Source of the DNA: Candidatus Eiseniibacteriota bacterium
GTDB taxonomy: Bacteria; ARS69
Direction of reading: 5' to 3'
Assembly: GCA_052390515.1 (NCBI GenBank)
Contig: JBQTGV010000072.1
Coordinates: 7,172 to 71,171 of the forward strand
DNA: 64,000 nt
Each line of letters opens with the position of its first letter. The first letter of the stretch is position 1. A program made the position numbers and the translations under genes. Positions 7,324-20,859 of this stretch are shown here, in pieces. The notes beneath the pieces were generated by a model that saw only the letters and a program-made list of their open reading frames with translations, had not been told where the DNA came from and did not search any database.

Positions 7324-7502
7324 GGCAGTGCTCGCCCCTTCCGTTCCACGATACGCCGCGCGACCATCGGGTCAAGCCGCCACGGCCGGATCCTGATCAC
7401 CGAAGCACGGTGGCGGGGCGTGGCTCCGCCAGCCGGTGTACGATGGCGGCCGAGCGCCAGGGCGGCCCCCGCCGTCACCACTCTCGAGCAGAGGATTCCC
7501 GT

Positions 7503-8402
7503 TTGAACGCGACGATCGTCTCCGGGGCGAACTCGCGCTACTTCTCCCTGCTCTCGGATCTCGTTCGCTCGATCCGCGACCGGGAGGAGTCCCGCGGGGT
7601 CGCGCTCTCCATCCTCGATCTCGGCCTGGAGGAGCCGGAGCGGCTCTGGCTCGAAGGCTGCGGGGCCAAGGTCGTCCGACCCGGCTGGGATCTGGAAATC
7701 CCCGAGAGCCGCCGGCCGCCCGAGCACGTCAAGGGACTGACCGCGCGGCCGTTCCTGCGCGACCACTTCCCGGGCCACGACATCTACGTGTGGCTCGACT
7801 CCGACACCTGGGTGCAGGAGTGGGCGGCGGTCGAGCTGCTGATGCGCGCAGCCGATTCGGGAGCGCTCGGGGTCGTGGCCGAGACGGACCGTGCGTATCC
7901 CACCGTGGACGAGCAGCTGCGCATCGACCGTGTGCTGGGGATCCCGTACCGCGTCTCGTCGTACAACTACCGGAAGTTCCGGGACGCCTACGGGGACGAG
8001 GTGGCGCTCCGGCTCGCGCAGCAGCCGATCGTCAACGCCGGCGTCTTCGCCCTGCGACGCGACGCGCCGCACTGGAGCATCTGGGGCGAGTGCTACCAGC
8101 GCACCCTGGATCGCTCCCGCCGCGACGGCGCCGATCAGGTGTCGCTGAACCGGGTCTGCCGCGCGGGCCACCTGTCCGTCGAGCTGCTCCCGGCGACGTG
8201 CAACTGGATCACGTCCAAGGCTCTCCCGCGATGGGATCCCGTCTCCGGACGGCTCGTCGAGCCGTACCTTCCGCACGCGCCGATCGGCATCTTGCATCTC
8301 ACCGGTGCGGCCAAGGACGCCGAGCTCGACCTCTCGTCACTGGACGGCGGCCTCATCAGGCGCACGCTGCGCTACGCCGGTGCGGAACGTCAGAACGACT
8401 GA
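7503..8402 (+). CDS. Putative GT-A fold glycosyltransferase / nucleotide-diphospho-sugar transferase (DxD motif)
   Basis: ORF 7410..8402. The conserved part starts at an in-frame TTG at 7503 (MNATIVSGANSRYF) with GAGGA 10 nt upstream. DXD-like motif VWLDSDTWV. Transcribed divergently from korA. Confidence 0.55.
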   Translation: MNATIVSGANSRYFSLLSDLVRSIRDREESRGVALSILDLGLEEPERLWLEGCGAKVVRPGWDLEIPESRRPPEHVKGLTARPFLRDHFPGHDIYVWLDSDTWVQEWAAVELLMRAADSGALGVVAETDRAYPTVDEQLRIDRVLGIPYRVSSYNYRKFRDAYGDEVALRLAQQPIVNAGVFALRRDAPHWSIWGECYQRTLDRSRRDGADQVSLNRVCRAGHLSVELLPATCNWITSKALPRWDPVSGRLVEPYLPHAPIGILHLTGAAKDAELDLSSLDGGLIRRTLRYAGAERQND

Positions 8403-10003
8403 TCAGCGATCCGCGCGGCGTTGGCCATCAACGTCAACGTGAGGTTCTTCGCGGGCAGGAACGGGAACGTCGATCCGTCCACGATCCAGAGGTTCTCGAA
8501 GTCACGGCTCCGCCCCTCCGGCGTCGTCGTCAGAGGGCGCTCCTCGCGCGTCATCGGTAGCGTCCCGGCGTAGTGCACACTCGCTCCCATGGGCCGCACG
8601 TGGGACATGCCGGGCGGGACGACGCAGCCGAGCTTCCGGAGCGCACCACGGAACCGCCGCAGCGTGCTGCTGATCCGCGCCCGCTCGCCGGGAGGAGGCT
8701 CGTAGTGCACGCGGAGCGGCGGGGCCTCGCTCTCCGGCCCTCCCGTGTCCCGTGCGTCGAGCGTGAGGAAGCAGTCGTCCCGCCGCCGATCCCAGAAGTT
8801 CACGTTCACGAGGCCAAGCGCGGCGTGCACGTTGCGGAACACGTGCAGCGCGGTGCGCAGGTCGAAGGGCACGCTCTGCACGATGGGGTGGATCTGTGCG
8901 GTCTTCAAAGTCGTCACGATCCCGTGGACGTACTCGCGCGGATCGTCGGCGGTCATTCCGATGAGCAGCTGGTGGTACTGGTACGTGCGCGGATCGTGCG
9001 GGCGGCGGATCATCCCCAGATTCAGGAAGGGCATCAGCACCTGGCGGTTGTCCATGAGGCCGGTCAGGCGGATCACCTCTCCCCGTTCGCGGCGCCACGA
9101 CTCCAGAAAGATCCGGCTCGACGCCAGCGTCCCCGCACCGAGAACGAGGGCGTCGGCCGGGATCTCCTCGACGCCCGTTCCGTCCACTCGCGCGGCGATC
9201 ACCGACGTGACCCGTCCCGCGTGCGTGCGGAAGCGGAGCACGTGCAGGCCCGGCCGGTAGCGGAAGCGCGGCTCCCGGAGACACTCGCCGAGCGTGGCCA
9301 GCGGCGTGTACAGCGAGTCGATCGGACAGCCCATGAGGCAGCGGCCGAGGTAGTCGCAGGCGGGGCGGCCGTGCAGCTCCCGGGTGAGCGTGGCCACGCG
9401 GGAGCGGCCGACGACGAACCCTCGGCCGCGGACCGCGCTCCGCTTCGCCGCGTACCGCTCGAGCAGGACGCGGGAGTGCTCGTCCATGGTGAGCGCGGGC
9501 TGCAACGACTTCGGCGCGGGCATGTGCTCGGTGATGTCGTCCACCGCCCCGGAGACCCCGATGCGCTCGGCGACGAGCTCATAGTACGGCGCCAGGTCGT
9601 CGTACGTGAACGGGAAGTCGGCGAGCTCGCCCGCGTTGAATGGGAAGACGCCCGCGGTCCACGCCTCCGCCAGTCCCCCGCGGGCGAAGGAAACGAGCGG
9701 CGAGAATCCGGTGGCGCGCACATCGAAGGCGTCTACCCCTTCGAAGACGTAGCTCTTGTTCGGCGGAAACCCGTAGTACTCGCTCTCGGCGCCCGGATAG
9801 ATCACCGACTCGAAGCGTGATCCCAGGAAGTGCGCGACGGGATCCTCCAGGTTCTTCTTCAAGTCCTCGAAGCCGTCCCCGGGCCGCACGGGCTGGGGCC
9901 GCTCGCGGCCGACGTCGAGCAGTACGACCTCGTGTCCGCGGGAGAGCGCGGACCTGGCGAAGTGGACCGCGCTCGCTCCGGAGCCGACGACGACGATGTT
10001 CAT
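8390..10003 (-). CDS. GMC-family FAD-dependent oxidoreductase
   Basis: Within ORF 8390..10780 the real start is MNIVVVGSGASAVHFARS (Rossmann GxGxxG), ATG at 10001-10003. The C-terminal GMC region (HYAGTLPM...) is present; the upstream 259 aa are R/P-rich artefact. ATGA overlap with the upstream SDR gene. Confidence 0.85.
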   Translation of the reverse strand: MNIVVVGSGASAVHFARSALSRGHEVVLLDVGRERPQPVRPGDGFEDLKKNLEDPVAHFLGSRFESVIYPGAESEYYGFPPNKSYVFEGVDAFDVRATGFSPLVSFARGGLAEAWTAGVFPFNAGELADFPFTYDDLAPYYELVAERIGVSGAVDDITEHMPAPKSLQPALTMDEHSRVLLERYAAKRSAVRGRGFVVGRSRVATLTRELHGRPACDYLGRCLMGCPIDSLYTPLATLGECLREPRFRYRPGLHVLRFRTHAGRVTSVIAARVDGTGVEEIPADALVLGAGTLASSRIFLESWRRERGEVIRLTGLMDNRQVLMPFLNLGMIRRPHDPRTYQYHQLLIGMTADDPREYVHGIVTTLKTAQIHPIVQSVPFDLRTALHVFRNVHAALGLVNVNFWDRRRDDCFLTLDARDTGGPESEAPPLRVHYEPPPGERARISSTLRRFRGALRKLGCVVPPGMSHVRPMGASVHYAGTLPMTREERPLTTTPEGRSRDFENLWIVDGSTFPFLPAKNLTLTLMANAARIADQSF

Positions 10004-11349
10004 GCGCCACGCCGCGGAGCGATTCGGTCGACGATCCCGAACAGGGGGACCACGACGAGAGAAACGGCGAAGGTCGCCGCGAAGAGCATGACCCGCCCGA
10101 CGAGCCCCGCCACGAAACCGAGACTCGTCCCCCGATCGGGCGCGTCCACCTTCGCCGACGTCTCGCCCGTGCTCTCCAGGATGGCGAGCAGCAGCACGAG
10201 TTTGCGGCGCAGCGTGCCGTTGCGCGCGAGCACGCCGGCCCACGCGTCCGCCAGGCGCGCGAAGGCCGGTCCTCGCCGGGCGACGGCGGTGAGCACGTCG
10301 TCGCCGGATCTCATCGGACCGTGTGCGCCAGGACGGTGAGCCGCTCGATAGGCGTGCCGCACCGAGTCCGGGGGCTCCGCGCCGATCAAGTGGCGGCACA
10401 GGACGGAGCACTCCCGGTCGAGGACCGCGTCGGTCGGCACCGCCGCCGCCTCGAGCTCCAGGTGCTCGAGGACGATCTCGTCGACGCCCCGGCGCTGGGA
10501 GAGCGGCGGGGAAACGCCCTCGGCGGGCTCGGCGCTCGAGTCGTGGGCGAAGAAGTAGAACTGGCCCGCGGTGACCGGGAGCACGGAGAAGAACATCGGC
10601 TCCATCCACGACAGCAAGCGGATGATCAGGCCGACCGGAAGATGCATCGCGGGACCTTCGCGTCCGCGGATACGGCGGCGGATGTGCCGGAGAAACTCCT
10701 CCAGCGACAGCGTGTCCCGGCCGCCCAGCTCCAGCGTGCGCCCTCCGAGAGGCCCGCCGGCGGCCAGGTCGGCCAGGCAACGGGCGACGTCATCCACGTG
10801 CACGGGCTGGACGGCATTACGGCCGCTGCCGAAGACCGGCATCACCGGAGCCGCGGCCAGCGCGCGGAACTTGTCCCACAGCGGCGATCCCGGCCCCAGC
10901 ACGGCGGTCGGCCGCACGACGGCCCAGTCCAGACCGCTCGCCCTGACGAGCGCTTCGGCCTCTTCCTTCGCCTGCGCGTAGGGGTAGGCATGTCTGTCGG
11001 GGTACTTCACCGCGATCGTGCTGACGAAGAGGAATCGGCGGACACCGGCGGACTTCGCGCGGTCGAGCAGACGCGCGGTCTCCACGCGGTTCACGCGCGC
11101 ATGCTCCTCCGCCCTCGCCTTGCCGGTCAGCGCGGCGAGATGGACCACGGTCTCGATCCCGCGCAGGGTGGACTCGTACGTCGCCGGGGCCTCGAGCATC
11201 CCGCGGACGACGCGGACGTTCGGTCCCGGATCGGGGAGCCGGCTCGGGTCGCGGACCAGGCAGACGACCTCCCGGCCCTTCGCCGTCAGGCAGCGGAGGA
11301 CCCGGCCGCCGATGAACCCGGTCGCGCCGGTGAGGAAGATGCCGCTCAT
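10000..11349 (-). CDS. NAD-dependent epimerase/dehydratase (SDR) fused to a ~150-aa C-terminal domain with a predicted TM helix
   Basis: Starts at MSGIFLTGATGFIGGRVL (ATG 11347-11349). Extended-SDR motifs are present (VVHLAAL, Y...K in YPYAQAKEE). The C-terminal extension ends in the hydrophobic LGFVAGLVGRVMLFAATFAVSLVVVPLFGIV. Confidence 0.8.
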   Translation of the reverse strand: MSGIFLTGATGFIGGRVLRCLTAKGREVVCLVRDPSRLPDPGPNVRVVRGMLEAPATYESTLRGIETVVHLAALTGKARAEEHARVNRVETARLLDRAKSAGVRRFLFVSTIAVKYPDRHAYPYAQAKEEAEALVRASGLDWAVVRPTAVLGPGSPLWDKFRALAAAPVMPVFGSGRNAVQPVHVDDVARCLADLAAGGPLGGRTLELGGRDTLSLEEFLRHIRRRIRGREGPAMHLPVGLIIRLLSWMEPMFFSVLPVTAGQFYFFAHDSSAEPAEGVSPPLSQRRGVDEIVLEHLELEAAAVPTDAVLDRECSVLCRHLIGAEPPDSVRHAYRAAHRPGAHGPMRSGDDVLTAVARRGPAFARLADAWAGVLARNGTLRRKLVLLLAILESTGETSAKVDAPDRGTSLGFVAGLVGRVMLFAATFAVSLVVVPLFGIVDRIAPRRGA

Positions 11350-11381
11350 CGAGTCGTCGCGGAGCTCGGCACGAGCACGGG

Positions 11382-11831
11382 TCAGCGGGCGGTGCGGACG
11401 ACCGTCTCGGCGTCGTCCTCGATCTCGACCACGAGATCCTTGCGCTTGACCGCGGAGAGGGCCAGGGACGACCAGGCGGCGAGCCAGAGCACGCCGCCGA
11501 TCGGAGTCACGGCGCCGAACGTACGCACGCCGGTGAACGCCAGCAGATACAGCGAGCCGCAGAACACGACCGTGCCGAGGGCGAAGAGCCAGCCGGCCGC
11601 CGGGGCGAAGCGGCCGTAGCGCCGGCCGGACACGAGCCCCGCGCCGATCATGGCGAGCGCGTGCAGGCCCTGCCAGCGCACCGCGGTGTGGAACCACTCG
11701 AGCTGCTCGTCGGACAGCCTTCCGTCGAGCGCGTGCGCGCCGAACGCACCCAGCGCAACGGTGAGGAGCCCGGACACCGCGCCGAGGAGCACGAAGTGCC
11801 GCTCGCGATCGGATGAGGAGTCCAGGATCAA
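11382..11831 (-). CDS. DUF423-family small membrane protein
   Basis: Hydrophobic protein (…HFVLLGAVSGLLTVALGAFGAHAL…WQGLHALAMIGAGLV…). TTG start at 11829-11831 chosen because the longer ORF would overlap the upstream gene; 7 nt downstream of the mqn stop. Confidence 0.55.
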   Translation of the reverse strand: MILDSSSDRERHFVLLGAVSGLLTVALGAFGAHALDGRLSDEQLEWFHTAVRWQGLHALAMIGAGLVSGRRYGRFAPAAGWLFALGTVVFCGSLYLLAFTGVRTFGAVTPIGGVLWLAAWSSLALSAVKRKDLVVEIEDDAETVVRTAR

Positions 11832-11838
11832 GGCCGCC

Positions 11839-12966
11839 TCACCACTCCCGCACGTGCTCGTAGAGCGTCGTGCGTTGCATGGCCCGGAAGCCCGCCTCCT
11901 TGATGATCGCCACGCACTCCTCGGTGGTCGTCGTGTTGCGGTGGTTCGCCAAGCGAAGCACATTCTCCTCGATGAGCGTGCCCCCGAAGTCGTCGCCGCC
12001 GGCGTGCAGCGCGACCTGCCCGGTCTTCTTACCCTCGGAGAACCAGCTCGCCTGGACGTGCTCGAAGCAGTCCAGGTAGATGCGGGCCAGCGCGATGATG
12101 CGCAGGTACTTCGGCGGTCCGGGGCTCTCCGGCACCCACTTCTCCAGCAGGGTGTTCCCCGGCTTGAAGCTCCAGGGCACGAACGCGGTGAACCCGCCGG
12201 TCTCGTCCTGCAGCTCGCGGATGCGTCGCAGGTGCTCGACGATCTCCTCGTCGCGCTCGGCGTGGCCGTACATCATCGTCGCCGTCGACCGATAGCCGAT
12301 CTCGTGCGCGGTACGCATCACTTCCAGCCAGTTCTCCGCGGAGGGCTTCTTCGGGCTGATGCGCTTGCGCACCCGATCCACCAGGATCTCCGCGCCTCCT
12401 CCGGGAATCGTGCGCTGCCCCGCGTTCCACAGCTCCTGCAGGACTTCGCGGATGGAAAGGCCCGAGACCTCCGCCATCGTGGCGATCTCCGACGGGCTCC
12501 ACAGGTGCACGCACAGATCCGGGTAGGCCTTCTTCAAAGCTCGCACCACGTCCACGTAGTACGAGAAGGGGATCTCCGGATTGTGCCCGCCCTGCAGCAG
12601 CGAAGTCGTCGCGCCCTTGGTCACGCCGCGGCCCACCATCTCCACGACTTCGTCGACCGAGTGCCAGTAGCCCTCGGGGTGGCCCGGCTTGCGGTAGAAC
12701 GCGCAGAAGAGGCAGTCAGTGACGCACACGTTCGTGTAGTTGGGGTTGGTGTCGATCACGAAGGTGACGAAGTCGCCGGGGGCGCGTCTCCGGCGCATCT
12801 CGGCACCGAGCGCACACAGATCCGAGAGGTGTGCGTCGCGGAGCAGGAACAGCGCGTCCTGCTCGTCGATCCGCTCGCCGTCGAGGACGCGTTCGGAGAG
12901 CTCCACGAAGCGGGCCGGATCGCCGGCCGGCCGGTGCAGGTCCTGCCAGGCGAAGGTCGTCGCCAT
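11839..12966 (-). CDS. Radical SAM enzyme of the MqnC/MqnE family (futalosine-pathway menaquinone biosynthesis)
   Basis: Starts MATTFAWQDL (ATG 12964-12966). Radical-SAM Cys triad CVTDCLFCAF; strong MqnC/MqnE-like conservation (…YWHSVDEVVE…GGDDFGGTLIEENV…). MqnC cannot be told from MqnE by eye. Confidence 0.85.
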   Translation of the reverse strand: MATTFAWQDLHRPAGDPARFVELSERVLDGERIDEQDALFLLRDAHLSDLCALGAEMRRRRAPGDFVTFVIDTNPNYTNVCVTDCLFCAFYRKPGHPEGYWHSVDEVVEMVGRGVTKGATTSLLQGGHNPEIPFSYYVDVVRALKKAYPDLCVHLWSPSEIATMAEVSGLSIREVLQELWNAGQRTIPGGGAEILVDRVRKRISPKKPSAENWLEVMRTAHEIGYRSTATMMYGHAERDEEIVEHLRRIRELQDETGGFTAFVPWSFKPGNTLLEKWVPESPGPPKYLRIIALARIYLDCFEHVQASWFSEGKKTGQVALHAGGDDFGGTLIEENVLRLANHRNTTTTEECVAIIKEAGFRAMQRTTLYEHVREW

Positions 12967-13748
12967 CAGCGCGCCTCCTCCGCTAGCATCGCCTCGAAAG
13001 CCTGCTCGCCGAACGTCTCCACCGGCCCGATCCGGTAGCGGAAGGTCTCCAGGTACTGCCGGATGCTCTCGGCGTCGAGGTCGAACTCCGGCCCTCGGCG
13101 CGCGGCGATCTCCGGAACACGCTCCTCCCACGTCTCCAGCGACCGCTCGAGGCTCGTCCGGATACGCTCCCGGTCCTCCTCCGGGACGTCGCGGGAAACC
13201 ACCCACCGCGCGAAAACGAAGGGCAGCGCCTGCCAGGAGTGCCACTCTTCGCCCAGGTCGTAGACGAAGGGGAATCCTTCCAGCCCTTCGCAGGCGGCGC
13301 GCAACGCGCTGTCACCGATCAGCAGGCGCGCCTCGTCGTTGGGCAGGTCGCCGCGCTCCAGCGTCACGTGCCGCGCTTCGTAGCGGCGGCGCAGGATGAC
13401 CTCCAGCAGCCGCACTGACGTGGAGCTCTCGCCGGTGAGTCCCACGCGACAGCCGGAGAGCCGGTCGATCCCACAGCGGGCGAAGAGCAGCACGGAGTGC
13501 GCCGGACCCTCGCACGCGATCCCGAAGTCGCCGAGCGGCTCGTAACGGTCCCGCAGCCGGAACCAGTCGACCACCGCCATCGGCCCGCAAGTGGCCGCGC
13601 CGGCGTCGGCCAGGCGACCGAGCTCGCGGGGGACCTCCCGGACGACGTCGTACCCGAGCTCGCTCAGCCCCTCGTAGAACGGCTCACAGTTGAGGTACGG
13701 GATGAGCGCGAGCGTCGTCGCGTTCCGCGTCGTGGACTTCGAGTACAT
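12966..13748 (-). CDS. mqnA: Chorismate dehydratase MqnA (futalosine pathway)
   Basis: 260 aa beginning …TLALIPYLNCEPFYEGL, the typical MqnA N-terminus (periplasmic-binding-protein-like fold). 1-nt start/stop overlap with the downstream mqn gene. Confidence 0.8.
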   Translation of the reverse strand: MYSKSTTRNATTLALIPYLNCEPFYEGLSELGYDVVREVPRELGRLADAGAATCGPMAVVDWFRLRDRYEPLGDFGIACEGPAHSVLLFARCGIDRLSGCRVGLTGESSTSVRLLEVILRRRYEARHVTLERGDLPNDEARLLIGDSALRAACEGLEGFPFVYDLGEEWHSWQALPFVFARWVVSRDVPEEDRERIRTSLERSLETWEERVPEIAARRGPEFDLDAESIRQYLETFRYRIGPVETFGEQAFEAMLAEEAR

Positions 13749-14823
13749 GGTAGAGAGCGTTCCTCCGGACGGGTACCTTGCCCGCCTCGCGAATCATCTT
13801 GAGAATGCGGCTCTGGGTGAGCCCCACCGGGCTCGGCGCCAGCGCGAAGTGCGCGATCTTCTCCTCCACGATCGTGCCGTCCACGTCGTCCGCGCCGAAG
13901 TTCAGCGCCACGGACGCGGTCTCCTCGCCGAGCATGACCCAGTACGCCTTGATGTGGTCGAAGTTGTCGAGCAGCAGGCGTGCCGTGGCGATCGTCCGCA
14001 GCCCGTCGTCGGCCGATGCCGGCCGGTCCACCAGCAGGGTCGTACCCAGCTGGTACTCGAGCGGGATGAACGAGAAGAAGCCGCCGGTCTCGTCCTGCAG
14101 GGAGCGCACCTGGATCATGTGGTCCACGCGCTCTTCCAGTGTCTCGATGTGACCGAACAGCAGCGTACAGTTGGAGCGGATGCCCATCCCGTGCGCGATG
14201 CGGTGGATCTCGAACCAGCGCTCGTGCCCCATCTTGTTGTGGTAGAGCTCGCGGCGGATTCGCTCGGAGAAGACTTCCGCCCCGCCGCCGGGCATCGCCA
14301 CCATCCCGGCGTCGCGCAGCGTGCCGAGCACGTCCTCCACGCTCCTCTTGGAGATCCGCGTGAACCAGTCGATCTCGACGGCGGTCCAGGCCTTGATGGG
14401 CAGCCGCGGATAGGCCTCGTGCAGGCGCCGGACGATCTCCACGTAGTCGTCGAACTTCCACCTGGGATGCAGGCCGCCGACGATGTGGATCTCGTCGATC
14501 TCCTCGCTCCCGTGAGCGAGGATCTGCTCCATGGTCATCTCGTAGGCGTGCTCGTCGCCCTTGCGCGCGGCGAAGTCGCAGAACTTGCAGGTGAGCACGC
14601 ACAGGTTCGTCGGGTTGAGCTGGCGATTGAGCACATAGAGCACGCGATCGCCGGTCCTGCGCCGTTTCGCGGCGTCGGCCAGGCGCCCCAGCGCGAAGAG
14701 ATCCGGCGTCGTCAGGCAGGCCATGCCGTCGGCGAAGTCCAGGCGTTCGCCCGCCTCGATTTTCCCGGCGACGCGACGGAGCGCTTCGTCCCGGATCAGC
14801 GTGCAGTCCACGGTGGCGGCCAT
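13684..14823 (-). CDS. Second radical SAM enzyme of the MqnC/MqnE family
   Basis: Conserved part starts MAATVDCTLIRDEAL (ATG 14821-14823) with GGGAGGT 3 nt upstream. Cys triad CVLTCKFCDF. Paralogue of the 11839..12966 gene (…GADDVDGTIVEEKI…). Confidence 0.8.
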   Translation of the reverse strand: MAATVDCTLIRDEALRRVAGKIEAGERLDFADGMACLTTPDLFALGRLADAAKRRRTGDRVLYVLNRQLNPTNLCVLTCKFCDFAARKGDEHAYEMTMEQILAHGSEEIDEIHIVGGLHPRWKFDDYVEIVRRLHEAYPRLPIKAWTAVEIDWFTRISKRSVEDVLGTLRDAGMVAMPGGGAEVFSERIRRELYHNKMGHERWFEIHRIAHGMGIRSNCTLLFGHIETLEERVDHMIQVRSLQDETGGFFSFIPLEYQLGTTLLVDRPASADDGLRTIATARLLLDNFDHIKAYWVMLGEETASVALNFGADDVDGTIVEEKIAHFALAPSPVGLTQSRILKMIREAGKVPVRRNALYHVLEVHDAERDDARAHPVPQL

Positions 14824-14909
14824 GACCTCCCCGGCGGCAAGGGCGCCCATGATGGGGCCAGGGGGCGGGATGATCAAGGCCGTCGGAGCGAGCGCCCGCC
14901 GGGAGCGGG

Positions 14910-15458
14910 TCAAGCCGACCCGCCCCCCAGCGACCTGCGGAGCTCCTCGAGGTCTTCGGCGCCGAGCCCCGAGAAGTGCCGGACGCGCCCGGTCACGTCC
15001 GTGGTCCCGAAGTACTCCATCGAGCACTTCGCGTGCACGTAGCCCGACGGCTCGAAGCGGCCGTCCTGAAAGTAGACGAGCGAGATCCGCCAGTCGCCGC
15101 GCGGAATCGCCTCGCGGCAGCCGCGGCAGCGGGCGCGGCCGTTCGGCGATCGTTCCGCTCCGTCGACGCGCGGGAGGCGCCGGTGCGCGATGCCCGCGCG
15201 GGCCAGCTCGGAGAGGCGCGCCGCGTCGTCGACGGCCGGCTCGCCCTGCGCCAGCACCTCCAGGAAGGGCTCGGGGCGCTTGAGCGCCGCGCACTCGGGG
15301 TGGAACCACAGCGTCATCTCCCCGTCGGCGAACGGGTTCGGCAGACGTTCGCCGAAGCGGAGCTCGCCCTTGGCGATGGCCTGACCGCAGCCCCGGCACT
15401 TCGCCCGGCCGGTCGGCGCGGTCTCGAAGACGTGCGCCAAGGCTAGTCCGTCCCCCAC
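14910..15458 (-). CDS. Protein with two PARP-type zinc-finger-like modules
   Basis: Two repeats: CRGCGQAIAKGELRFG…WFHPEC and CRGCREAIPRGDWRIS…YVHAKC. GTG start at 15458 (alternative TTG at 15440). Overlaps the end of the upstream AhpD-like gene. Confidence 0.6.
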   Translation of the reverse strand: MGDGLALAHVFETAPTGRAKCRGCGQAIAKGELRFGERLPNPFADGEMTLWFHPECAALKRPEPFLEVLAQGEPAVDDAARLSELARAGIAHRRLPRVDGAERSPNGRARCRGCREAIPRGDWRISLVYFQDGRFEPSGYVHAKCSMEYFGTTDVTGRVRHFSGLGAEDLEELRRSLGGGSA

Positions 15459-16024
15459 CGCGCCACGAAGCTCTCCGGCTCCACCCCGAGGGCGTGCGCC
15501 ACGCGGGTGATGTAGTTGAAGTAGGCGATCACCTGCACCGCGTCGTGCAGGGCGACGTCGTCGAGCCCGTGGCGGCGAAGCGTGTCCAGATCCGCCGGAG
15601 CCATCTCGTGCTGGCGGCGCGTCAGCTTCTCGGCGAAGGCGCAGAGCGCCGCGTCCGCCCGCTCGAGTTCGGCCTCCCGCCAGTCCCGGGCGACCGCGTG
15701 CACGAACCGGTCCGCGCGATCGTCGTCCCAGCCGAGCTTGGCGACCTCCGCCCGGAGGTCGTGCGCGTGCGCACGCGTTCAGTACTCGCAGGTCACGGCC
15801 GCGGACGAGACGACGGCCAGCATCTCGCGCTGCACGCGCGTCAGCGCCGACGCACCGTGCATCAGCGCCGCGTAGTGCCGCAGGCTCGCGTCCATGACCG
15901 GCGGGTTCAGCGACATGACGTGGACGATGTTCCAGACGCGTCCGGCGCGCGCGATGGCGTCATCGAACTGCTTCTTGAGGAAGCCGGTCGCCTCCCCCAC
16001 GCCGATCTGACGGATCCACGGCAA
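15443..16024 (-). CDS. AhpD-like / carboxymuconolactone-decarboxylase-family peroxidase-related protein with in-frame UGA (candidate selenocysteine: C-x-x-U-x3-H in place of the family's CxxC-x3-H)
   Basis: ORFs 15779..16024 and 15443..15703 are in the same frame, separated by a single TGA (15779-15781) and 25 sense codons. The joined product MPWIRQIGVGE…AAVTCEY[U]TRAHAHDL…QVIAYFNYITRVAHALG is a full-length carboxymuconolactone-decarboxylase-family protein (~194 aa). TTG start with GGAAGGAGGG Shine-Dalgarno. Confidence 0.7.
15740..15778 (-). promoter_or_regulatory. Candidate bacterial SECIS-like stem-loop immediately 3' of the in-frame UGA
   Basis: mRNA reads UGA-ACGCGUGCGCACGCGCAC-GACCUCC-GGGC-GGAGGUC. 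A perfect 7-bp stem with a G-rich 4-nt apical loop starts 19 nt after UGA; the spacer is itself palindromic (GCGUGCGCACGC). Confidence 0.5.
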
Positions 16025-16173
16025 AGCGGGCCCTCCTTCCGCGGCGGGACGGACCGGGGAAGTTCTACCCCCGCGCGCCGCGCCCGCGCAATGACCCGAC
16101 CAGGGCGCTGAATCCGGCGGGCCGACCGGCCGAAGACAGGAGGGTCCTGCCCACTCCTCCCGAGGACCGCCTG

Positions 16174-17316
16174 ATGGCTCGTATCCTCGTCGCCGACGAC
16201 GTCCCCTTCATCGCGGCGATGATCGGCTCCGTGTTCGAGAGGGAGGGCCACGAGGTGGCCATCGCAGCCGACGGCGCGGAGGCCGTCCGCAAGGCGAAGG
16301 ATCTGCTCCCCGATCTCATCCTGCTGGACCTCGTGATGCCGGGGACCGACGGCCTCGAGGCTGCCACGCGGATCAAGAGCGACAGCTCCACCCACCACAT
16401 CCCCATCATGATGATCAGCGCTTTGGGCGACTTGCGCACGATTTCGGACGCGTTCGCCGCGGACGTCGCCGAGTTCGTGACCAAGCCGTTCGAGGCCGAC
16501 GAGCTGCTGGAGAAGGCCTCGATGCTCCTCGGCAGCTTCCGCATGACCTACTCCATCAGCGACGAGAAGCGCATCCCCACCGTCACCGTCCTGCACGACG
16601 AGCTCGCGCTGGAGACGTTCGACCTGCTGCTGCACGCGCTGCGCACCGCCCAGGGCAGCGGCGCGCGCCCGATCGTGCTGGACCTGTCCCGCGTGAGGCG
16701 GCTCGCCGCGGAGACCGAGGCCGAGATCGGCGCCTTCGCGACGAAGATCCGCGAGCTGGGCGAGGACCTGCACATCGTTCGCCCGGAGGCGGGCACGCGC
16801 GCGAGCCAGATCTTGCCGGGCGTCACCGGCGAGCTGAGCCTGCACGACAGCAAGAGCCGTGCGGTGAGCGCGGCCCGTCGCACTGCCCGGGCGCAGGGCT
16901 TCCTCTCCGGTGTGATGACGCCGCTCCCGTCGGCGCCGGCCCAGCGGCCACCCTCCGGGGGCGAAGCGATCCGCTTCGACGTGCTGGACACCCTGGCCAT
17001 GGTCCGCCTGCCCGGTCCGGAGGTCCGCGCCGAGGAGCTCGTCGCCATCGAAGAGGGGCTTCCCCGTTCCGCCCACGTGCTCCTGCTCGACCTTTCCGAG
17101 ATCCGGGAGCTGTCCGCCGCGCGCATTCGGGAGCTCGGGGAGCTCGTCGACCGGATCAGCCTGACCGGGCGGCGCGTGAAGCTGGTCAATCCGTGCCCAG
17201 CGGCCGCGGATGCCCTCCGAGAGGGTGGGCAGGCAGCGAACCTGTTCACCTTGAAGGGTCGACCGCGCGGGTTCCGCCCGGCCGGAGCTGATCCGCAACG
17301 ACCGGGACCGAGGTAG
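16174..17316 (+). CDS. Response-regulator receiver domain protein with C-terminal STAS (anti-sigma-factor-antagonist-like) domains
   Basis: N-terminal CheY-like REC (MARILVADDVPFIAAMI…DLILLDLVMPGTDGLEA…KPFEADEL), followed by two STAS-like segments. Confidence 0.8.
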   Translation: MARILVADDVPFIAAMIGSVFEREGHEVAIAADGAEAVRKAKDLLPDLILLDLVMPGTDGLEAATRIKSDSSTHHIPIMMISALGDLRTISDAFAADVAEFVTKPFEADELLEKASMLLGSFRMTYSISDEKRIPTVTVLHDELALETFDLLLHALRTAQGSGARPIVLDLSRVRRLAAETEAEIGAFATKIRELGEDLHIVRPEAGTRASQILPGVTGELSLHDSKSRAVSAARRTARAQGFLSGVMTPLPSAPAQRPPSGGEAIRFDVLDTLAMVRLPGPEVRAEELVAIEEGLPRSAHVLLLDLSEIRELSAARIRELGELVDRISLTGRRVKLVNPCPAAADALREGGQAANLFTLKGRPRGFRPAGADPQRPGPR

Positions 17317-17465
17317 CAGCGTCCGCCTAGCCTGGCTTAAGCCGGGCGGAAAACGACGGCCCGATCAGGAAGCCCGCCTGTGCCCGGCCGATGTCGCGTT
17401 TCGCACGATCGAAGAGAGCCGGTACTCGGTTTCCGAGAATGACCGACCATCCGGGGTTCCTGGAG

Positions 17466-17495
17466 GTTGAGGTCGGCCGGCCGGATTCGTTATAC
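17466..17495 (+). promoter_or_regulatory. Possible sigma70-type promoter for the B12-rSAM operon
   Basis: TTGAGG-N18-TATACT in the only AT-richer patch of the 290-bp intergenic region, ~110 nt upstream of the ATG at 17607. Confidence 0.35.
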
Positions 17496-19185: not shown

Positions 19186-20859
19186 ATGAACGTCGTCGTC
19201 GCGCTCGGAGCCGCCGGTGCGCTCCTCGTCGTCGCGGCCATCGCCCTACCCTCCTCCGCGCTCGTCGCTTGCCTCCGTCCCGAGCTGCCCGGCCCCGACG
19301 CGCCGCTGCTGCAGGGGGCCGCGCTCTTCCGCGCCGGGCTCGCCGTGCTGGGCCTCGTCCTGGCCGGAGGCGCGCTGCTGGGCAGGCGCCCCGCCCGGGC
19401 GGTCGTCGCACCGGCAGCGGCCCGCCCCTTCGGAAGGCGGGAAGCCGCGCTGCTCGCCCTCCTGCTTCTCACCGCCACCGCGCTCCGCCTCTACGGACTC
19501 GGAGCGGGACTCTGGTACGACGAGATCCTGACCTTCTCGAAGTTCGCGCGCATGCCCTACGGCGAGATCGTCTCCACCTACGACTCGCAGAACAACCACT
19601 TTGTCTACTCGCTCGCCGCGCACGCCTCCTTCTCGCTCCTCGGCGAGAGCGCGTCGTCGGTACGACTGCCGGCGGTGCTCTTTGGCGTCGGGAGCATCGC
19701 CGCGCTGTGGTTGCTCGCCCGCCGCCTCACCGGCCCGCGGGAGTCCTTGCTGGCCTGCGCGCTGCTGACCTTCTCGTATCACCACATCTGGTTCAGCCAG
19801 AACGCGCGCGGCTACTCCGCCCTGCTGCTCTGGACGAACCTGTCGAGCTGGCTGCTGGTCCGCGCTTGCCGCGAGAGGCGCGAAGGGCTCTGGCTGCTCT
19901 ACGGCGTGACCGTCTCGCTCGGGGTCTGGACGCACATGACCATGCTGTTCGTGATCCTCGGACACTTCGTCATCTTCGCCGTCCACGCCTTGCGGAAGCG
20001 ACACGAGCGTCCGTCCCCGTGGATCGGGATGCTGGGCTTCGTGTTCAGCGGACTCCTCGTCTTCCAGCTGCACGCGCTCGTGCTGCCGCAGCTCTTCGGG
20101 GGAACGCTGTGGCAGGGCGTGCAGAGCACCGTCGGCGACTGGAAGAATCCGGTCTGGACCGTGCTCGAGATGCTGCGGGGCCTCGCCGGGGCGAACCTCG
20201 GCGGCATCGTGGCCCTCACCGGCTTCCTCGTCCTGGGCGTGGGCGTCTCGAGCTACGCGCGCGAGGAGCCGGTCGTCGTGCAGCTGCTGTTCCTGCCGGC
20301 CGCCCTCGGCGGCCTGCTCACCATGGCTCTCGGGCACCCGCTCTGGCCGCGGTTCTTCTTCTTCGCCGCGGGGTTCGCCGTGCTCGTCGTCGTCCGTGCC
20401 ACGACCGTGCTGGGGCGATGGGCTGCGCGGCTCCTCCGCCGAACCCCCCGCACCGGTGAGATCCTCGGAACCGCGTTCGCCATCCTCGGCATCCTGCTCA
20501 TGCTCCCTTCGCTCCGCCATGTGTACGCGCCGAAGCAGGACTTCGGCGGCGCGTTCGCGTACGTGCGGGAGCATCAGCAGCCGGGCGATGTCGTCGTGAC
20601 GGTGGGCATCGCCACCGACGCGTTCCGGAAGCTCCACGGCGTCGACTGGCCCGCGGTGGAGAGTCCGGCCGCGCTGGACGCCGTCCGGGCGAGCGCGCGC
20701 CGGACCTGGATGGTCTACACGCTTCCCCTGCACGTCGAATCGGTGTATCCGGAGCTCATGGCGAAGGTGCGGGAGGATTTCGCGGTCGAGACGAAGTTCT
20801 GGGGCACGCTCGGGGGCGGCACGATCTTCGTCTGCCGGGCCGACGGGGGCGCCGCGTGA
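19186..20859 (+). CDS. GT-C fold membrane glycosyltransferase (GT39/GT83, ArnT/PMT-like)
   Basis: 557 aa, polytopic. Conserved DE loop motif near the N-terminus (LYGLGAGLWYDEILTFSKF). Confidence 0.75.
   Translation: MNVVVALGAAGALLVVAAIALPSSALVACLRPELPGPDAPLLQGAALFRAGLAVLGLVLAGGALLGRRPARAVVAPAAARPFGRREAALLALLLLTATALRLYGLGAGLWYDEILTFSKFARMPYGEIVSTYDSQNNHFVYSLAAHASFSLLGESASSVRLPAVLFGVGSIAALWLLARRLTGPRESLLACALLTFSYHHIWFSQNARGYSALLLWTNLSSWLLVRACRERREGLWLLYGVTVSLGVWTHMTMLFVILGHFVIFAVHALRKRHERPSPWIGMLGFVFSGLLVFQLHALVLPQLFGGTLWQGVQSTVGDWKNPVWTVLEMLRGLAGANLGGIVALTGFLVLGVGVSSYAREEPVVVQLLFLPAALGGLLTMALGHPLWPRFFFFAAGFAVLVVVRATTVLGRWAARLLRRTPRTGEILGTAFAILGILLMLPSLRHVYAPKQDFGGAFAYVREHQQPGDVVVTVGIATDAFRKLHGVDWPAVESPAALDAVRASARRTWMVYTLPLHVESVYPELMAKVREDFAVETKFWGTLGGGTIFVCRADGGAA

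What the first reader, a model, noticed from the sequence alone, without database searches (positions are those of the whole stretch)
8390..16024. Long co-directional gene string coupling futalosine-pathway genes (MqnC/E-MqnA-MqnC/E) to the AhpD-like selenoprotein, a double PARP-type zinc-finger protein, DUF423, an SDR-membrane fusion and a GMC oxidoreductase
Eight minus-strand genes run from 16024 to 8390 with tiny gaps or overlaps (ATGA couplings at 10000-10003; a 1-nt start/stop overlap at 12966; 7-nt and 32-nt gaps). An extended-SDR 'epimerase/dehydratase' with a C-terminal TM extension is translationally coupled to a GMC flavoprotein. An oxidase + reductase pair of this kind is a classic two-step epimerisation/oxidation unit acting on a lipid-linked or quinone-type substrate. 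Its tight linkage to mqnA and mqnC/E suggests unassigned tailoring or late steps of futalosine-pathway menaquinone biosynthesis, or a different isoprenoid-quinone modification.
Basis: inference. Interest (0 to 1): 0.6.

Follow-up and report, generated by a model that had tools for sequence, protein, structure and literature searches.

The report
Menaquinone genes beside unrelated sugar-oxidoreductase module
The eight tightly packed genes are real, but the flavoprotein/reductase pair at the end is a self-contained, widespread and uncharacterised membrane module that elsewhere sits with lipid-linked sugar transferases, so it is probably not a missing step of vitamin K2 (menaquinone) synthesis.

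Summary
Observation confirmed. Eight minus-strand genes run 16024→8390 with the stated overlaps and gaps: AhpD-like selenoprotein, double zf-PARP protein, MqnE, MqnA, MqnC, DUF423, SDR fusion, GMC flavoprotein. The menaquinone-tailoring reading is not supported. I examined 75 GMC-homologue loci from species-representative genomes of at least eight phyla. The SDR sits directly upstream in 65 and the small C-terminal domain in at least 64. The mqnE-mqnA-mqnC-DUF423 block is present in only 5, all among the window's nearest relatives. Within that clade, unrelated genes, including an opposite-strand gene, are inserted between the mqn genes and the SDR. In other phyla the recurrent neighbours are a PgfS/ArnC-like GT2, an unannotated polytopic membrane protein, PMT_2 GT-C enzymes, flippases and deacetylases. 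The module also occurs in Methylococcales MAGs. The "TM extension" of the SDR is a separate family of about 150 aa, usually a stand-alone gene next to the GMC. The GMC resembles FAD-glucose and fructose dehydrogenase catalytic subunits. It keeps their three 3Fe-4S cysteines and the His/Asn catalytic pair, but has no Tat partner and no cytochrome c. Best reading: a DprE1/DprE2-like oxidise-then-reduce unit acting on a membrane-bound sugar, joined to the futalosine operon in one lineage only. The substrate is unknown.

The parts
15443..16024 (-). AhpD-like (peroxidase-related, CMD family) selenoprotein. The in-frame TGA at 15779-15781 reads as Sec in a C-E-Y-U motif.
   Evidence: With U replaced by C, TIGR01926 scores 118.6 bits (cutoff 81.8) and Pfam CMD 32.8 bits. 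The TGA is at the same position in L081. This gene is present only in the window and L081; it is absent from the other clade members.
15742..15761 (-). Candidate SECIS hairpin CGACCUCC-GGGC-GGAGGUCG, starting 20 nt after the UGA.
   Evidence: An 8-bp stem with a G-rich tetraloop appears in local folds and is identical in L081. The whole-segment fold is no more stable than shuffles (z -0.24), so this is suggestive only.
14910..15440 (-). 176-aa protein made of two PARP-type zinc fingers, with no catalytic domain.
   Evidence: Pfam zf-PARP 80.3 bits (cutoff 39.3), two stretches. Present in L081 and absent from L083, L001-L004 and L008.
13684..14850 (-). mqnE, aminofutalosine synthase (radical SAM).
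   Evidence: TIGR03700 444 bits, above the 434.55 cutoff. Radical_SAM and CofH_C domains.
12966..13748 (-). mqnA, chorismate dehydratase. Overlaps the 3' end of mqnE by 65 nt.
   Evidence: Pfam VitK2_biosynth 163.9 bits. The best solved relatives are chorismate dehydratase SCO4506 (7ahr/2nxo), E 5e-30. The 65-nt overlap recurs in L081 and L083.
11839..12966 (-). mqnC, cyclic dehypoxanthinyl futalosine synthase (radical SAM).
   Evidence: TIGR03699 453.9 bits, above the 428.1 cutoff. TGATG start/stop overlap with mqnA.
11382..11831 (-). DUF423 small membrane protein (YgdD family), function unknown.
   Evidence: Pfam DUF423 99.2 bits. Follows mqnC in the window, L081, L083, L089, L001-L004 and L008, but not in L088 or L090.
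10480..11349 (-). Extended-SDR domain (residues 1 to about 290) of the fusion protein, with an intact NAD(P)-binding motif and catalytic triad.
10000..10440 (-). C-terminal domain (residues about 304-449) of the fusion. It is an uncharacterised all-helical 'small subunit' ending in one TM helix (residues about 409-440).
   Evidence: It occurs as a stand-alone 140-180 aa gene directly upstream of the GMC in many loci. The library holds 821 cluster representatives at E<=1e-3, and most of the top 150 are stand-alone. No Pfam or PDB match. Conserved RECxxFxRYL and LRRKLxLLLAILE motifs. TM prediction.
8390..10003 (-). GMC-fold FAD dehydrogenase, translationally coupled (ATGA) to the SDR fusion. No signal peptide and no TM helix.
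   Evidence: Pfam GMC_oxred_C 43.6 bits. The closest solved relatives by sequence and by fold are the B. cepacia FAD-glucose dehydrogenase alpha subunit and the fructose dehydrogenase large subunit, then C-glycoside 3-oxidases and pyranose 2-oxidases. H477 and N520 align with catalytic His476 and Asn519.
9326..9358 (-). Cys216-x5-Cys222-x3-Cys226 motif of the GMC, a predicted 3Fe-4S site.
   Evidence: The three cysteines align with Cys212, Cys218 and Cys222 of B. cepacia FAD-GDH. Those residues ligate its 3Fe-4S cluster (PMC6719666). They are invariant in 42 homologues.
19186..20859 (+). PMT_2-type GT-C membrane glycosyltransferase, 3.2 kb upstream of the string. A possible user of the module's product, but not part of the string.
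   Evidence: Pfam PMT_2 67 bits. About 10 hydrophobic segments. 40% identical to the PMT_2 gene linked to the module in Nitrospirales locus L030. PMT_2 homologues lie within 10 kb of the GMC in 19 of 75 loci and also in L081.

Best explanation
The string is a lineage-specific concatenation of separate units that are probably transcribed together.

(1) A genus-level add-on: an AhpD-like selenoprotein and a two-zinc-finger protein.

(2) The early futalosine genes mqnE-mqnA-mqnC, followed by DUF423.

(3) An autonomous three-part membrane module: an extended SDR, a small membrane-anchored subunit (fused to the SDR here), and a cytoplasmic GMC-fold FAD dehydrogenase with a 3Fe-4S site.

Proposed mechanism for unit 3 (inferred):
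- The small subunit docks the GMC on the cytoplasmic face of the membrane.
- The GMC oxidises a secondary hydroxyl of a sugar carried on a membrane lipid to a ketone. The carrier is most likely a polyprenyl phosphate made by a PgfS/ArnC-type GT2.
- Electrons pass from FAD to the 3Fe-4S cluster and on to the quinone pool.
- The SDR then reduces the ketone with NAD(P)H from the opposite face, giving an epimer.
- A GT-C enzyme transfers that epimer to an envelope acceptor.

This is what DprE1/DprE2 do, but the oxidase half has a different fold. Menaquinone would at most be the electron acceptor, not the substrate.

Shown: gene order, family assignments, conserved catalytic and cluster residues, and the synteny statistics. 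Inferred: one transcript, the substrate class, epimerisation as the outcome, and the electron path.
For: The string and its junctions are confirmed.

Family calls:
- MqnE and MqnC score above the NCBIfam equivalog cutoffs.
- MqnA matches chorismate dehydratase structures.

The module is autonomous:
- 310 relatives were found among species-representative genomes.
- Of 75 loci with at least 1.5 kb upstream, the SDR is adjacent in 65 and the small domain in at least 64.
- mqn genes and DUF423 are present in only 5.

Glycan context:
- A GT2 at least 55% identical to the L022/L030 GT2 queries (about 60-71% in most loci) occurs in 21 of 75 loci. It is PgfS-like (303 bits) and ArnC-like (173 bits) and has two C-terminal TM helices.
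- An unannotated polytopic membrane protein occurs in 31 of 75, and PMT_2 GT-C in 19 of 75. At least one of the three occurs in 36 of 75.
- Other recurrent neighbours are flippase, GT4, deacetylase, LPG_synthase_TM, GT87, sulfatase-type transferase and sulfotransferase genes.
- A PMT_2 gene lies 3.2 kb from the string in the window and in L081.

GMC chemistry:
- The nearest solved relatives all oxidise sugars.
- The three 3Fe-4S cysteines and the His/Asn pair are conserved.

The SDR has an intact catalytic triad.

The mqn link is separable:
- L083 has a PPTase inserted between DUF423 and the SDR.
- L002 has an 845-aa secreted protein there.
- L003 and L004 have an opposite-strand gene there.
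- L089 has two secreted proteins there.
- L088 and L090 mqn operons lack the module altogether.

Precedents:
- DprE1 (FAD) plus DprE2 (NAD(P)H) epimerise a decaprenyl-phosphate sugar, and menaquinone can reoxidise DprE1 (PMC11841060).
- Auxiliary epimerases act in polyprenyl-phosphate/GT-C three-component systems (PMC11127046).
Against: - No substrate is known.
- About half of the loci show none of the three marker transferase families within reach at the tblastn thresholds used.
- The window's own clade has no GT2 or 510-aa membrane protein next to the pair.
- In ten loci, including four Gemmatimonadota ones (L040, L059, L066, L076), the GMC and small subunit occur without an adjacent SDR. 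Oxidation alone may therefore be the core function, and epimerisation only one outcome.
- The SDR's top fold matches are NDUFA9-type complex I subunits, which says nothing about sugars.
- Within the clade the mqn-module neighbourhood persists in nine loci, down to about 59% MqnA identity, despite insertions. That could reflect some selection for linkage.
- The promoter and terminator scans use E. coli-type consensus patterns that may not apply to this phylum.
- The 3Fe-4S cluster, the FAD and the topology are all predicted, not measured.
Confidence: 0.55

Rival explanations
1. The SDR/GMC pair (with DUF423) performs an unassigned tailoring or late step of futalosine-pathway menaquinone biosynthesis, or another isoprenoid-quinone modification, at least in this lineage.
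For: - The pair is tightly coupled and co-directional with mqnE-mqnA-mqnC.
- The neighbourhood is retained in nine loci of the clade: the window, L081, L083, L089, L001-L004 and L008.
- A membrane-docked redox pair could in principle act on a prenylated quinone.
Against: - 70 of 75 GMC loci carry no mqn gene.
- The module is present in Methylococcales and Gammaproteobacteria MAGs.
- Futalosine operons in L088 and L090 lack it.
- Unrelated genes, including an opposite-strand gene, are inserted between mqn and the pair in clade members.
- The GMC's nearest relatives are sugar dehydrogenases and oxidases.
- As far as I know, all futalosine steps already have assigned enzyme families.
Confidence: 0.07
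2. A cofactor-supply link. The pair has nothing to do with making menaquinone but uses it. The 3Fe-4S GMC dehydrogenase passes its electrons to the menaquinone pool, and in this clade it is co-expressed with the genes that make its acceptor.
For: - A 3Fe-4S site sits where FAD-GDH hands electrons to its partner, yet no cytochrome c gene was seen beside the module in the loci annotated gene by gene.
- There is a membrane anchor.
- DprE1 can be reoxidised by menaquinone (PMC11841060).
- Clade-wide neighbourhood with the mqn genes.
- An NqrB/RnfD-like neighbour occurs in some Planctomycete loci.
Against: - This is inference only; no quinone site has been identified.
- The module also occurs in lineages that, as far as I know, use ubiquinone, so any acceptor link is not specific to menaquinone.
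- Simple synteny inertia among related genomes explains the linkage equally well.
Confidence: 0.2
3. The pair acts on a polycyclic or long-chain membrane lipid such as a hopanoid, sterol-like triterpenoid or carotenoid hydroxyl, in a cholesterol-oxidase/3-beta-HSD-like manner, rather than on a sugar.
For: - The SDR hits 3Beta_HSD (42 bits) and, well below cutoff, HpnA (88.7 bits), OleD and SdmB models.
- The GMC superfamily includes cholesterol oxidase (my knowledge).
- An HpnJ-like B12 radical SAM gene lies nearby, far below cutoff.
- Several host phyla make hopanoids (my knowledge).
Against: - The top 24 fold matches of the GMC are all sugar-oxidising enzymes, and no cholesterol oxidase appears among the 50 matches listed.
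- No squalene-hopene cyclase or carotenoid gene was seen among recurrent neighbours. Those are glycosyltransferases, GT-C enzymes, flippases and deacetylases.
- All lipid-family NCBIfam hits are far below their cutoffs.
Confidence: 0.1
4. The string is not one functional or transcriptional unit. The genes are merely packed tightly in a compact genome, with independent internal promoters.
For: - The components have different phyletic ranges. The AhpD and zf-PARP genes occur only in the window and L081, the mqn genes are widespread, and the module is widespread but elsewhere.
- There is a 59-nt gap before mqnE.
- The promoter consensus for this phylum is unknown.
Against: - Four junctions are overlaps or gaps of 7 nt or less, and the largest gap downstream of mqnE is 32 nt.
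- No terminator-like structure occurs at any junction.
- The order is identical in L081.
Confidence: 0.08

Closest known systems
DprE1/DprE2 decaprenylphosphoryl-ribose 2'-epimerase (Mycobacterium and Gram-negative homologues)
   Same: - A two-protein unit: a flavoprotein oxidises a sugar hydroxyl and an NAD(P)H-dependent SDR reduces the ketone.
- Membrane-associated, with a lipid-phosphate-linked sugar as substrate.
- The product feeds GT-C transferases.
- The flavin can be reoxidised by menaquinone (PMC11841060, PMC11127046).
   Different: - The oxidase here has a GMC fold with a predicted 3Fe-4S cluster. DprE1 is a VAO/FAD_binding_4-type enzyme.
- The SDR here is an extended SDR fused to a membrane subunit.
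- The usual partner transferase is a nucleotide-sugar-dependent GT2 (PgfS/ArnC type), not a PRPP-dependent phosphoribosyltransferase.
- The substrate and product are unknown.
Membrane-bound FAD-dependent sugar dehydrogenase complexes (B. cepacia FAD-glucose dehydrogenase gamma-alpha-beta; Gluconobacter fructose dehydrogenase)
   Same: - The catalytic subunit is the closest solved relative by sequence (profile E 3e-18) and by fold (E about 1e-29).
- The three 3Fe-4S cysteines have identical spacing.
- The His/Asn catalytic pair is conserved.
- A small partner gene lies directly upstream of the catalytic gene.
   Different: - These complexes are periplasmic. They are exported by a Tat-signal 'hitchhiker' small subunit and wired to a multihaem cytochrome c.
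- Here there is no signal peptide, no twin-arginine motif and no cytochrome c gene.
- The small partner is unrelated in sequence and carries a C-terminal TM helix.
- The histidine that may covalently bind FAD in BcGDH (His105) is apparently not conserved.
- An SDR is attached.
- Sequence identity is only about 17-20%.
Three-component extracytoplasmic glycosylation systems (GtrA/B/V, ArnC/ArnT, Streptococcus Pgf, pentofuranose systems with auxiliary epimerases)
   Same: In many phyla the module is flanked by a GT2 with two C-terminal TM helices (PgfS/ArnC-like), polytopic membrane proteins including PMT_2 GT-C enzymes, flippase-like proteins and deacetylases. An SDR epimerase acting on the lipid-linked sugar has a precedent (ORF13 in PMC11127046).
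   Different: - No described system of this kind uses a GMC/3Fe-4S dehydrogenase.
- In the window's own clade only a PMT_2 gene is nearby; the GT2 and the 510-aa membrane protein are not.
- About half of the loci lack recognisable members within 10 kb.
Futalosine-pathway operon (mqnP/UbiA - UbiX - UbiD - mqnE - mqnA - mqnC)
   Same: The window's mqnE-mqnA-mqnC block, including the mqnE/mqnA overlap, matches the core of operons seen in L088, L089 and L090. An MqnL-like UbiD lies elsewhere in the window.
   Different: In this genus the UbiA/UbiX/UbiD genes are not upstream of mqnE. Instead an AhpD-like selenoprotein and a zf-PARP protein precede it, and DUF423 plus the SDR/GMC module follow it.

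Membership tests
MqnE (aminofutalosine synthase, TIGR03700) | Whole-protein score at or above the curated equivalog cutoff; radical SAM CxxxCxxC plus CofH_C domain. | tested here: met
   444 bits against a cutoff of 434.55. The MqnC model scores 321 bits, below its cutoff. Radical_SAM and CofH_C domains; C84-x3-C88-x2-C91 in the sequence.
MqnC (cyclic DHFL synthase, TIGR03699) | Whole-protein score at or above the curated equivalog cutoff. | tested here: met
   453.9 bits against a cutoff of 428.1. The MqnE model scores 342.6 bits, below its cutoff.
MqnA (chorismate dehydratase) | VitK2_biosynth fold, and closer to MqnA than to MqnD. | tested here: met
   Pfam PF02621 163.9 bits. All nine PDB hits are chorismate dehydratase (SCO4506) or unnamed proteins, and no MqnD entry reached E<=0.001. 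Activity not tested.
GMC oxidoreductase superfamily | N-terminal GxGxxG FAD-binding motif, GMC C-terminal domain, and a catalytic His with Asn/His partner. | tested here: met
   G7-S-G9-A-S11 at the N-terminus. GMC_oxred_C 43.6 bits against a cutoff of 24.6. H477 and N520 align with His476 and Asn519 of BcGDH. TM-score 0.73-0.74 to 6a2u_B. The Pfam GMC_oxred_N model was not matched.
3Fe-4S FAD-dependent dehydrogenase complexes (FAD-GDH / FDH type) | Cysteine-rich loop whose three cysteines ligate a 3Fe-4S cluster. | tested here: met
   C216, C222 and C226 align with Cys212, Cys218 and Cys222 (PMC6719666). They are invariant in 42 sequences. The presence of a cluster was not measured.
3Fe-4S FAD-dependent dehydrogenase complexes (FAD-GDH / FDH type) | Tat-signal hitchhiker small subunit and periplasmic location. 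| tested here: not met
   The small partner domain has no Pfam or PDB match. Stand-alone versions start directly with the conserved (R)EC motif and have no twin-arginine leader. The GMC has no signal peptide.
3Fe-4S FAD-dependent dehydrogenase complexes (FAD-GDH / FDH type) | Multihaem cytochrome c electron-transfer subunit encoded alongside. | tested here: not met
   No cytochrome gene lies adjacent to the module in the window or in the annotated loci L081 and L085-L087. The cytochromes in L083 lie more than 7 kb away in a separate NrfD-type cluster.
DprE1/DprE2 epimerase | DprE1: VAO/PCMH-type FAD_binding_4 flavoenzyme. | tested here: not met
   The flavoprotein here has a GMC fold. It is an analogue, not a homologue.
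DprE1/DprE2 epimerase | DprE2: NAD(P)H-dependent SDR that reduces the keto intermediate. | tested here: inconclusive
   An SDR with an intact TGxxGxxG motif and S/Y/K triad is present. It is of the extended type, and its substrate is untested.
DprE1/DprE2 epimerase | The substrate is a polyprenyl-phosphate sugar and the product is its epimer. | not testable with these tools
   The only support is gene context with PgfS/ArnC-like GT2 and GT-C genes.
Extended SDR (NAD-dependent epimerase/dehydratase) | TGxxGxxG Rossmann motif, catalytic Ser and YxxxK. | tested here: met
AhpD-like / peroxidase-related enzyme (TIGR01926), selenoprotein form | Family score above the cutoff, a CxxC/U redox motif with UGA at the second position, and a SECIS element downstream. 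| tested here: inconclusive
   118.6 bits against a cutoff of 81.8 with U read as C. The C-E-Y-U motif and the TGA are conserved in L081. A conserved 8-bp hairpin starts 20 nt downstream, but it is not distinguishable from shuffles by energy. Sec insertion was not shown.
DUF423 (PF04241) | Pfam gathering score. | tested here: met
   99.2 bits against a cutoff of 25.

The most novel reading that the evidence does not exclude
The SDR, small membrane subunit and GMC (FAD/3Fe-4S) trio is an undescribed, widespread enzyme system. It has 310 relatives among species-representative genomes of Acidobacteriota, Planctomycetota, Gemmatimonadota, Nitrospirota, Aminicenantes, Methylococcales, Eisenbacteria and others. 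It would be a non-homologous counterpart of DprE1/DprE2. It epimerises or oxidises a polyprenyl-phosphate-linked sugar on the cytoplasmic face, passes the electrons into the quinone pool, and supplies an unknown sugar donor to GT-C enzymes that decorate the envelope of many uncultured Gram-negative lineages.
Probability: 0.3. Interest if true: 0.7.

Novelty: new variant of a known kind. Interest (0 to 1): 0.42.

Why it matters
For menaquinone biology the result is negative. It removes a tempting but unsupported candidate for 'missing' futalosine chemistry.

The value lies in the by-product, a conserved three-part module that has no Pfam or NCBIfam family for its small subunit and no literature I could find. 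It combines the catalytic core of biosensor-type FAD/3Fe-4S sugar dehydrogenases with an SDR and a membrane anchor, in a cytoplasmic setting, next to lipid-linked glycosylation genes.

If it is a DprE1/E2 analogue, it points to an unknown lipid-linked sugar donor and envelope modification in several major environmental phyla. It would also be a second, independent evolutionary solution to epimerising sugars on a polyprenyl carrier.

Tried and rejected
Searches that found nothing:
- Rfam scan of 7000-17600 at E<=0.1: no match.
- Promoter and terminator scan: no sites above shuffle expectation, and none at junctions.
- Small C-terminal domain profile against PDB and Pfam: nothing.
- The 510-aa neighbour protein against Pfam, NCBIfam and PDB: nothing. 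Calling it GT-C-like is therefore a guess based on topology.
- Convergent ORF 7410-8402 against Pfam, NCBIfam and PDB: nothing.
- Window PMT_2 protein against PDB sequences: nothing.
- Literature searches for futalosine+DUF423, GMC+polyprenyl/undecaprenyl phosphate+epimerase, and Eisenbacteria+menaquinone: nothing relevant to the module.

Analyses that were uninformative:
- The energy test of the SECIS-like region was not significant.

Readings considered and rejected:
- The GMC as MftG (mycofactocin): 38 bits against a cutoff of 400.
- The SDR as HpnA: 88.7 bits against a cutoff of 367.65.

A methodological caveat: the tblastn thresholds under-count divergent neighbours. The Aminicenantes PMT/GT2 genes were found only by Pfam, and small subunits in L016, L027, L028 and L078 were found only by reading ORFs. 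The context counts are therefore lower bounds.

Full report
SOURCE AND OBSERVATION

The window's GMC, SDR and MqnA proteins are 100% identical to proteins of a 71-kb contig of a Candidatus Eiseniibacteriota MAG. G+C is about 70%.

Reading the minus strand from 16250 to 8300 and translating the models confirms eight co-directional genes:
- AhpD-like protein, 16024-15443. It has an in-frame TGA at 15781-15779 that turns a CxxC motif into C-E-Y-U.
- A 176-aa protein of two PARP-type zinc fingers, 15440-14910.
- mqnE, 14850-13684.
- mqnA, 13748-12966.
- mqnC, 12966-11839.
- DUF423, 11831-11382.
- An SDR fusion, 11349-10000.
- A GMC flavoprotein, 10003-8390.

The junctions are a 2-nt gap, a 59-nt gap, a 65-nt overlap, the TGATG overlap at 12966, 7-nt and 32-nt gaps, and the ATGA overlap at 10000-10003. 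A divergent response-regulator gene (16174-17316) and a convergent unknown ORF (7410-8402) bound the string.

No terminator-like or sigma-70-like site occurs inside the string above shuffle expectation, and there is no Rfam match. These consensus scans may not suit this phylum. A single transcript is therefore likely but only inferred.

FAMILY ASSIGNMENTS

Pfam and NCBIfam resolve the ambiguous 'MqnC/E' labels:
- The first radical SAM gene is MqnE (TIGR03700, 444 bits, cutoff 434.55).
- The second is MqnC (TIGR03699, 453.9 bits, cutoff 428.1).
- The gene between them matches solved chorismate dehydratases (SCO4506, E 5e-30), so it is MqnA and not MqnD.

The AhpD-like protein passes TIGR01926 when U is read as C. 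The same TGA and a conserved 8-bp hairpin 20 nt downstream occur in the nearest relative.

The SDR has an invariant TGxxGxxG motif and a Ser110/Tyr124/Lys128 triad.

SYNTENY FROM THE GMC SIDE

A profile of GMC homologues (A1) was scanned against one genome per GTDB species. It found 310 relatives, and 80 loci with up to 10 kb of flank were fetched. By record title they are:
- Acidobacteriota: 26
- Planctomycetota: 18
- Gemmatimonadota: 10, plus two labelled so among the close relatives
- Aminicenantes: 6
- Nitrospirota: 3
- Methylococcales: 2
- other Gammaproteobacteria: 1
- Calditrichota: 1
- a few unclassified or oddly labelled MAGs

tblastn with the window's eight proteins gave these counts among the 75 loci with at least 1.5 kb upstream of the GMC:
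- The SDR lies directly upstream in 65.
- The SDR's C-terminal domain lies directly upstream in at least 64. ORF inspection adds more.
- mqnE, mqnA, mqnC and DUF423 are present in only 5 (L001-L004, L008). These are among the closest GMC relatives (60-66% identity).
- The AhpD-like and zf-PARP genes are in none of the 80.

WHAT NORMALLY FLANKS THE PAIR

I clustered all ORFs of the 80 loci and annotated representatives. The recurrent neighbours are:
- A GT2 of about 320 aa with two C-terminal TM helices. It is at least 55% identical to the L022/L030 GT2 queries (about 60-71% in most loci). It is closest to Streptococcus PgfS (303 bits) and ArnC (173 bits), which as far as I know are polyprenyl-phosphate sugar synthases. 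Found in 21 of 75 loci.
- An unannotated polytopic membrane protein of about 510 aa. Found in 31 of 75.
- PMT_2-type GT-C transferases. Found in 19 of 75.
- At least one of these three occurs in 36 of 75.

Other repeated neighbours are Polysacc_synt flippases, GT4, further GT2s, polysaccharide deacetylase, LPG_synthase_TM, GT87, membrane sulfatase-type transferases, sulfotransferase and a GLF-like amine oxidase.

Loci scored negative by tblastn still showed a PMT GT-C and a GT2 by Pfam in Aminicenantes. In Planctomycetes they showed a large protein with a borderline 3-keto-disaccharide-hydrolase domain.

The window itself, and its 87% relative L081, carry a PMT_2 gene 3.2 kb upstream of the string, behind a B12 radical SAM gene.

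SYNTENY FROM THE mqn SIDE AND WITHIN THE CLADE

- L081 (GMC 87%) repeats the whole eight-gene string.
- L083 (76%) has mqnE-mqnA-mqnC-DUF423, then a 4'-phosphopantetheinyl transferase, then SDR-GMC. It has no AhpD or zf-PARP gene.
- L001, L002, L003, L004 and L008 have the same PPTase.
- L002 has in addition an 845-aa secreted protein before the SDR.
- L003 and L004 have an opposite-strand 241-aa gene before the SDR.
- L089 (MqnA 59%) has UbiA, UbiX, UbiD, mqnE, mqnA, mqnC, DUF423, PPTase, two secreted beta-helix-like paralogues, then SDR, small subunit and GMC.
- L088 (MqnA 66%) ends at mqnC-PPTase. L090 (44%) ends at mqnC with mqnD opposite. Neither has the pair.

The neighbourhood is therefore a trait of one clade. 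It tolerates insertions, including a strand switch, and it is absent from other futalosine operons.

ANATOMY OF THE MODULE: THE SMALL DOMAIN

- In many loci it is a stand-alone 140-180 aa gene between the SDR and the GMC, or next to the GMC with no SDR at all (L021, L027, L040, L053, L059, L062, L066, L071, L076, L078, L085, L087, L089).
- An exhaustive search with the window's residues 304-449 found 821 cluster representatives at E<=1e-3. Most of the top 150 are stand-alone, at about 140-165 aa.
- It is all-helical in the AF2 model (pLDDT 91.7) and ends in one TM helix.
- It carries RECxxFxRYL and LRRKLxLLLAILE motifs.
- It matches nothing in Pfam or the PDB.

ANATOMY OF THE MODULE: THE GMC

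- It has no signal peptide and no TM helix.
- Its closest solved relatives, by profile (E 3e-18) and by fold (E about 1e-29, TM 0.73-0.74), are the catalytic subunits of B. cepacia FAD-glucose dehydrogenase and Gluconobacter fructose dehydrogenase. C-glycoside 3-oxidases and pyranose 2-oxidases come next.
- Cys216, Cys222 and Cys226 align with Cys212, Cys218 and Cys222 of the glucose dehydrogenase. Those residues ligate its 3Fe-4S cluster (PMC6719666). They are invariant in 42 homologues.
- His477 and Asn520 match the catalytic His476/Asn519 pair.
- Unlike those periplasmic complexes, there is no Tat hitchhiker subunit and no cytochrome c gene.

MECHANISM (INFERRED)

A membrane-docked cytoplasmic FAD/3Fe-4S dehydrogenase of the sugar-oxidising branch is coupled one-to-one to an NAD(P)-dependent extended SDR. 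It lies beside a polyprenyl-phosphate sugar synthase and GT-C transferases. This is best explained as an oxidise-then-reduce unit acting on a lipid-linked sugar.

The net reaction would be epimerisation, with NAD(P)H consumed and a quinone reduced. This is the logic of DprE1/DprE2, in which menaquinone can reoxidise the flavin (PMC11841060). Auxiliary epimerases in polyprenyl-phosphate/GT-C systems have a precedent (PMC11127046).

The oxidase half is not homologous to DprE1. Loci without an SDR suggest that oxidation alone may be the core function. Substrate, product, cluster, topology and electron acceptor are all untested.

The 'redox pair on a lipid-linked substrate' part is reasonable. At most, menaquinone may be the electron acceptor. 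That would give a weak rationale for co-expression in this clade, but synteny inertia explains the linkage equally well.

The string is a lineage-specific concatenation. It has a genus-specific AhpD-Sec/zf-PARP front end, the mqnE-mqnA-mqnC core with DUF423, and the autonomous module at the end.

NOVELTY AND SCORE

The futalosine genes, AhpD-like selenoproteins, zf-PARP and DUF423 are known families. The SDR, small-subunit and GMC(3Fe-4S) module is uncharacterised as far as my searches reach. It is a new variant of two known kinds: FAD/3Fe-4S sugar dehydrogenase complexes and two-step lipid-linked sugar epimerases.

Interest is moderate.

Noticed in passing
window 28803-30566 (-): A UbiD-family decarboxylase scores 489.6 bits on the menaquinone-biosynthesis decarboxylase model TIGR03701, just under the 495.9 cutoff. 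It is a likely MqnL. In related operons (L088-L090) UbiA, UbiX and UbiD sit directly upstream of mqnE, but in this genome they are detached.
   Followed up: partly
L083 7867-8652; L001 3809-4564; L002 5213-5947; L008 7772-8644; L088 9921-10637; L089 10811-11503: A HetI/Sfp-type 4'-phosphopantetheinyl transferase follows mqnC or DUF423 in most relatives of this clade. It is missing from the window and L081. There is no obvious reason for a PPTase in a futalosine operon.
   Followed up: partly
window 13684-13748; L081 6242-6306; L083 5474-5538; L088 8001-8059: mqnA starts 59-65 nt inside the 3' end of mqnE in several relatives (11 nt in L090). This is a conserved, unusually long gene overlap. 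No alternative in-frame start exists for mqnA in the window.
   Followed up: partly
window 11382-11831 and clade loci: DUF423 (YgdD family, function unknown) follows mqnC in nine clade loci but not in L088 or L090. No paper in the library links DUF423 and futalosine.
   Followed up: partly
window 14910-16024; L081 3902-5039: An AhpD-like selenoprotein (C-E-Y-U) is followed after 2 nt by a stand-alone double PARP-type zinc-finger protein with no catalytic domain. The pair occurs only in the window and its 87% relative. What a nick-sensor-type zinc finger does in this setting is unexplained.
   Followed up: partly
window 7410-8402 (+); L081 11602-12531; L082 2308-3207: A conserved protein of about 300-330 aa converges on the GMC gene and overlaps its stop codon by 13 nt. 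It has no Pfam, NCBIfam or PDB match. A 'WLDSDT' stretch is reminiscent of a GT-A DxD motif, by eye only.
   Followed up: partly
window 17607-19163 (+) and 19186-20859 (+): A B12-binding radical SAM gene is followed by a PMT_2 GT-C glycosyltransferase. The radical SAM gene's best named model is HpnJ, at 217.8 bits against a cutoff of 577.6. The same pair occurs in L081.
   Followed up: partly
L022 5826-7361; L030 5972-7513 and about 30 other loci: A polytopic membrane protein family of about 510 aa has no Pfam, NCBIfam or PDB match. It reaches up to about 60-68% identity to the L022/L030 queries in several phyla and is tightly linked to the PgfS/ArnC-like GT2 and the SDR/GMC module. It is a candidate for a new GT-C-like transferase.
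   Followed up: partly
GMC residues 63-114 (window about 9662-9817): This segment is rich in invariant residues (E75, Y77, G78, P80, P81, F87, L103, S105, A107, G109, G110, L111) yet is modelled with pLDDT below 50. It covers the stretch that aligns to the long loop (Ala98-Ser109) lying over FAD in BcGDH. It may order only with a cofactor or partner bound.
   Followed up: no
small-subunit family (A4), window residues about 313-314 of the SDR fusion: A nearly invariant Glu-Cys pair opens the small domain. In BcGDH a small-subunit cysteine forms a disulfide next to the 3Fe-4S loop, but the matching GMC cysteine is absent here (Asp217). The role of this cysteine is open.
   Followed up: no
L056 5147-6139 (-); L087 11767-12708 (-): An NqrB/RnfD-like membrane protein is encoded just downstream of the GMC in several Planctomycete-type loci. 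It may be relevant to where the electrons go.
   Followed up: no
L027, L045, L067, L073, L079: MAG records labelled Halobacteria, Patescibacteria or Clostridia carry the module with neighbours typical of Gram-negative lineages. For example, L027 is 68-71% identical to the Methylococcaceae locus L022 for the GT2 and the 510-aa protein. This suggests mis-binned or mislabelled contigs.
   Followed up: no
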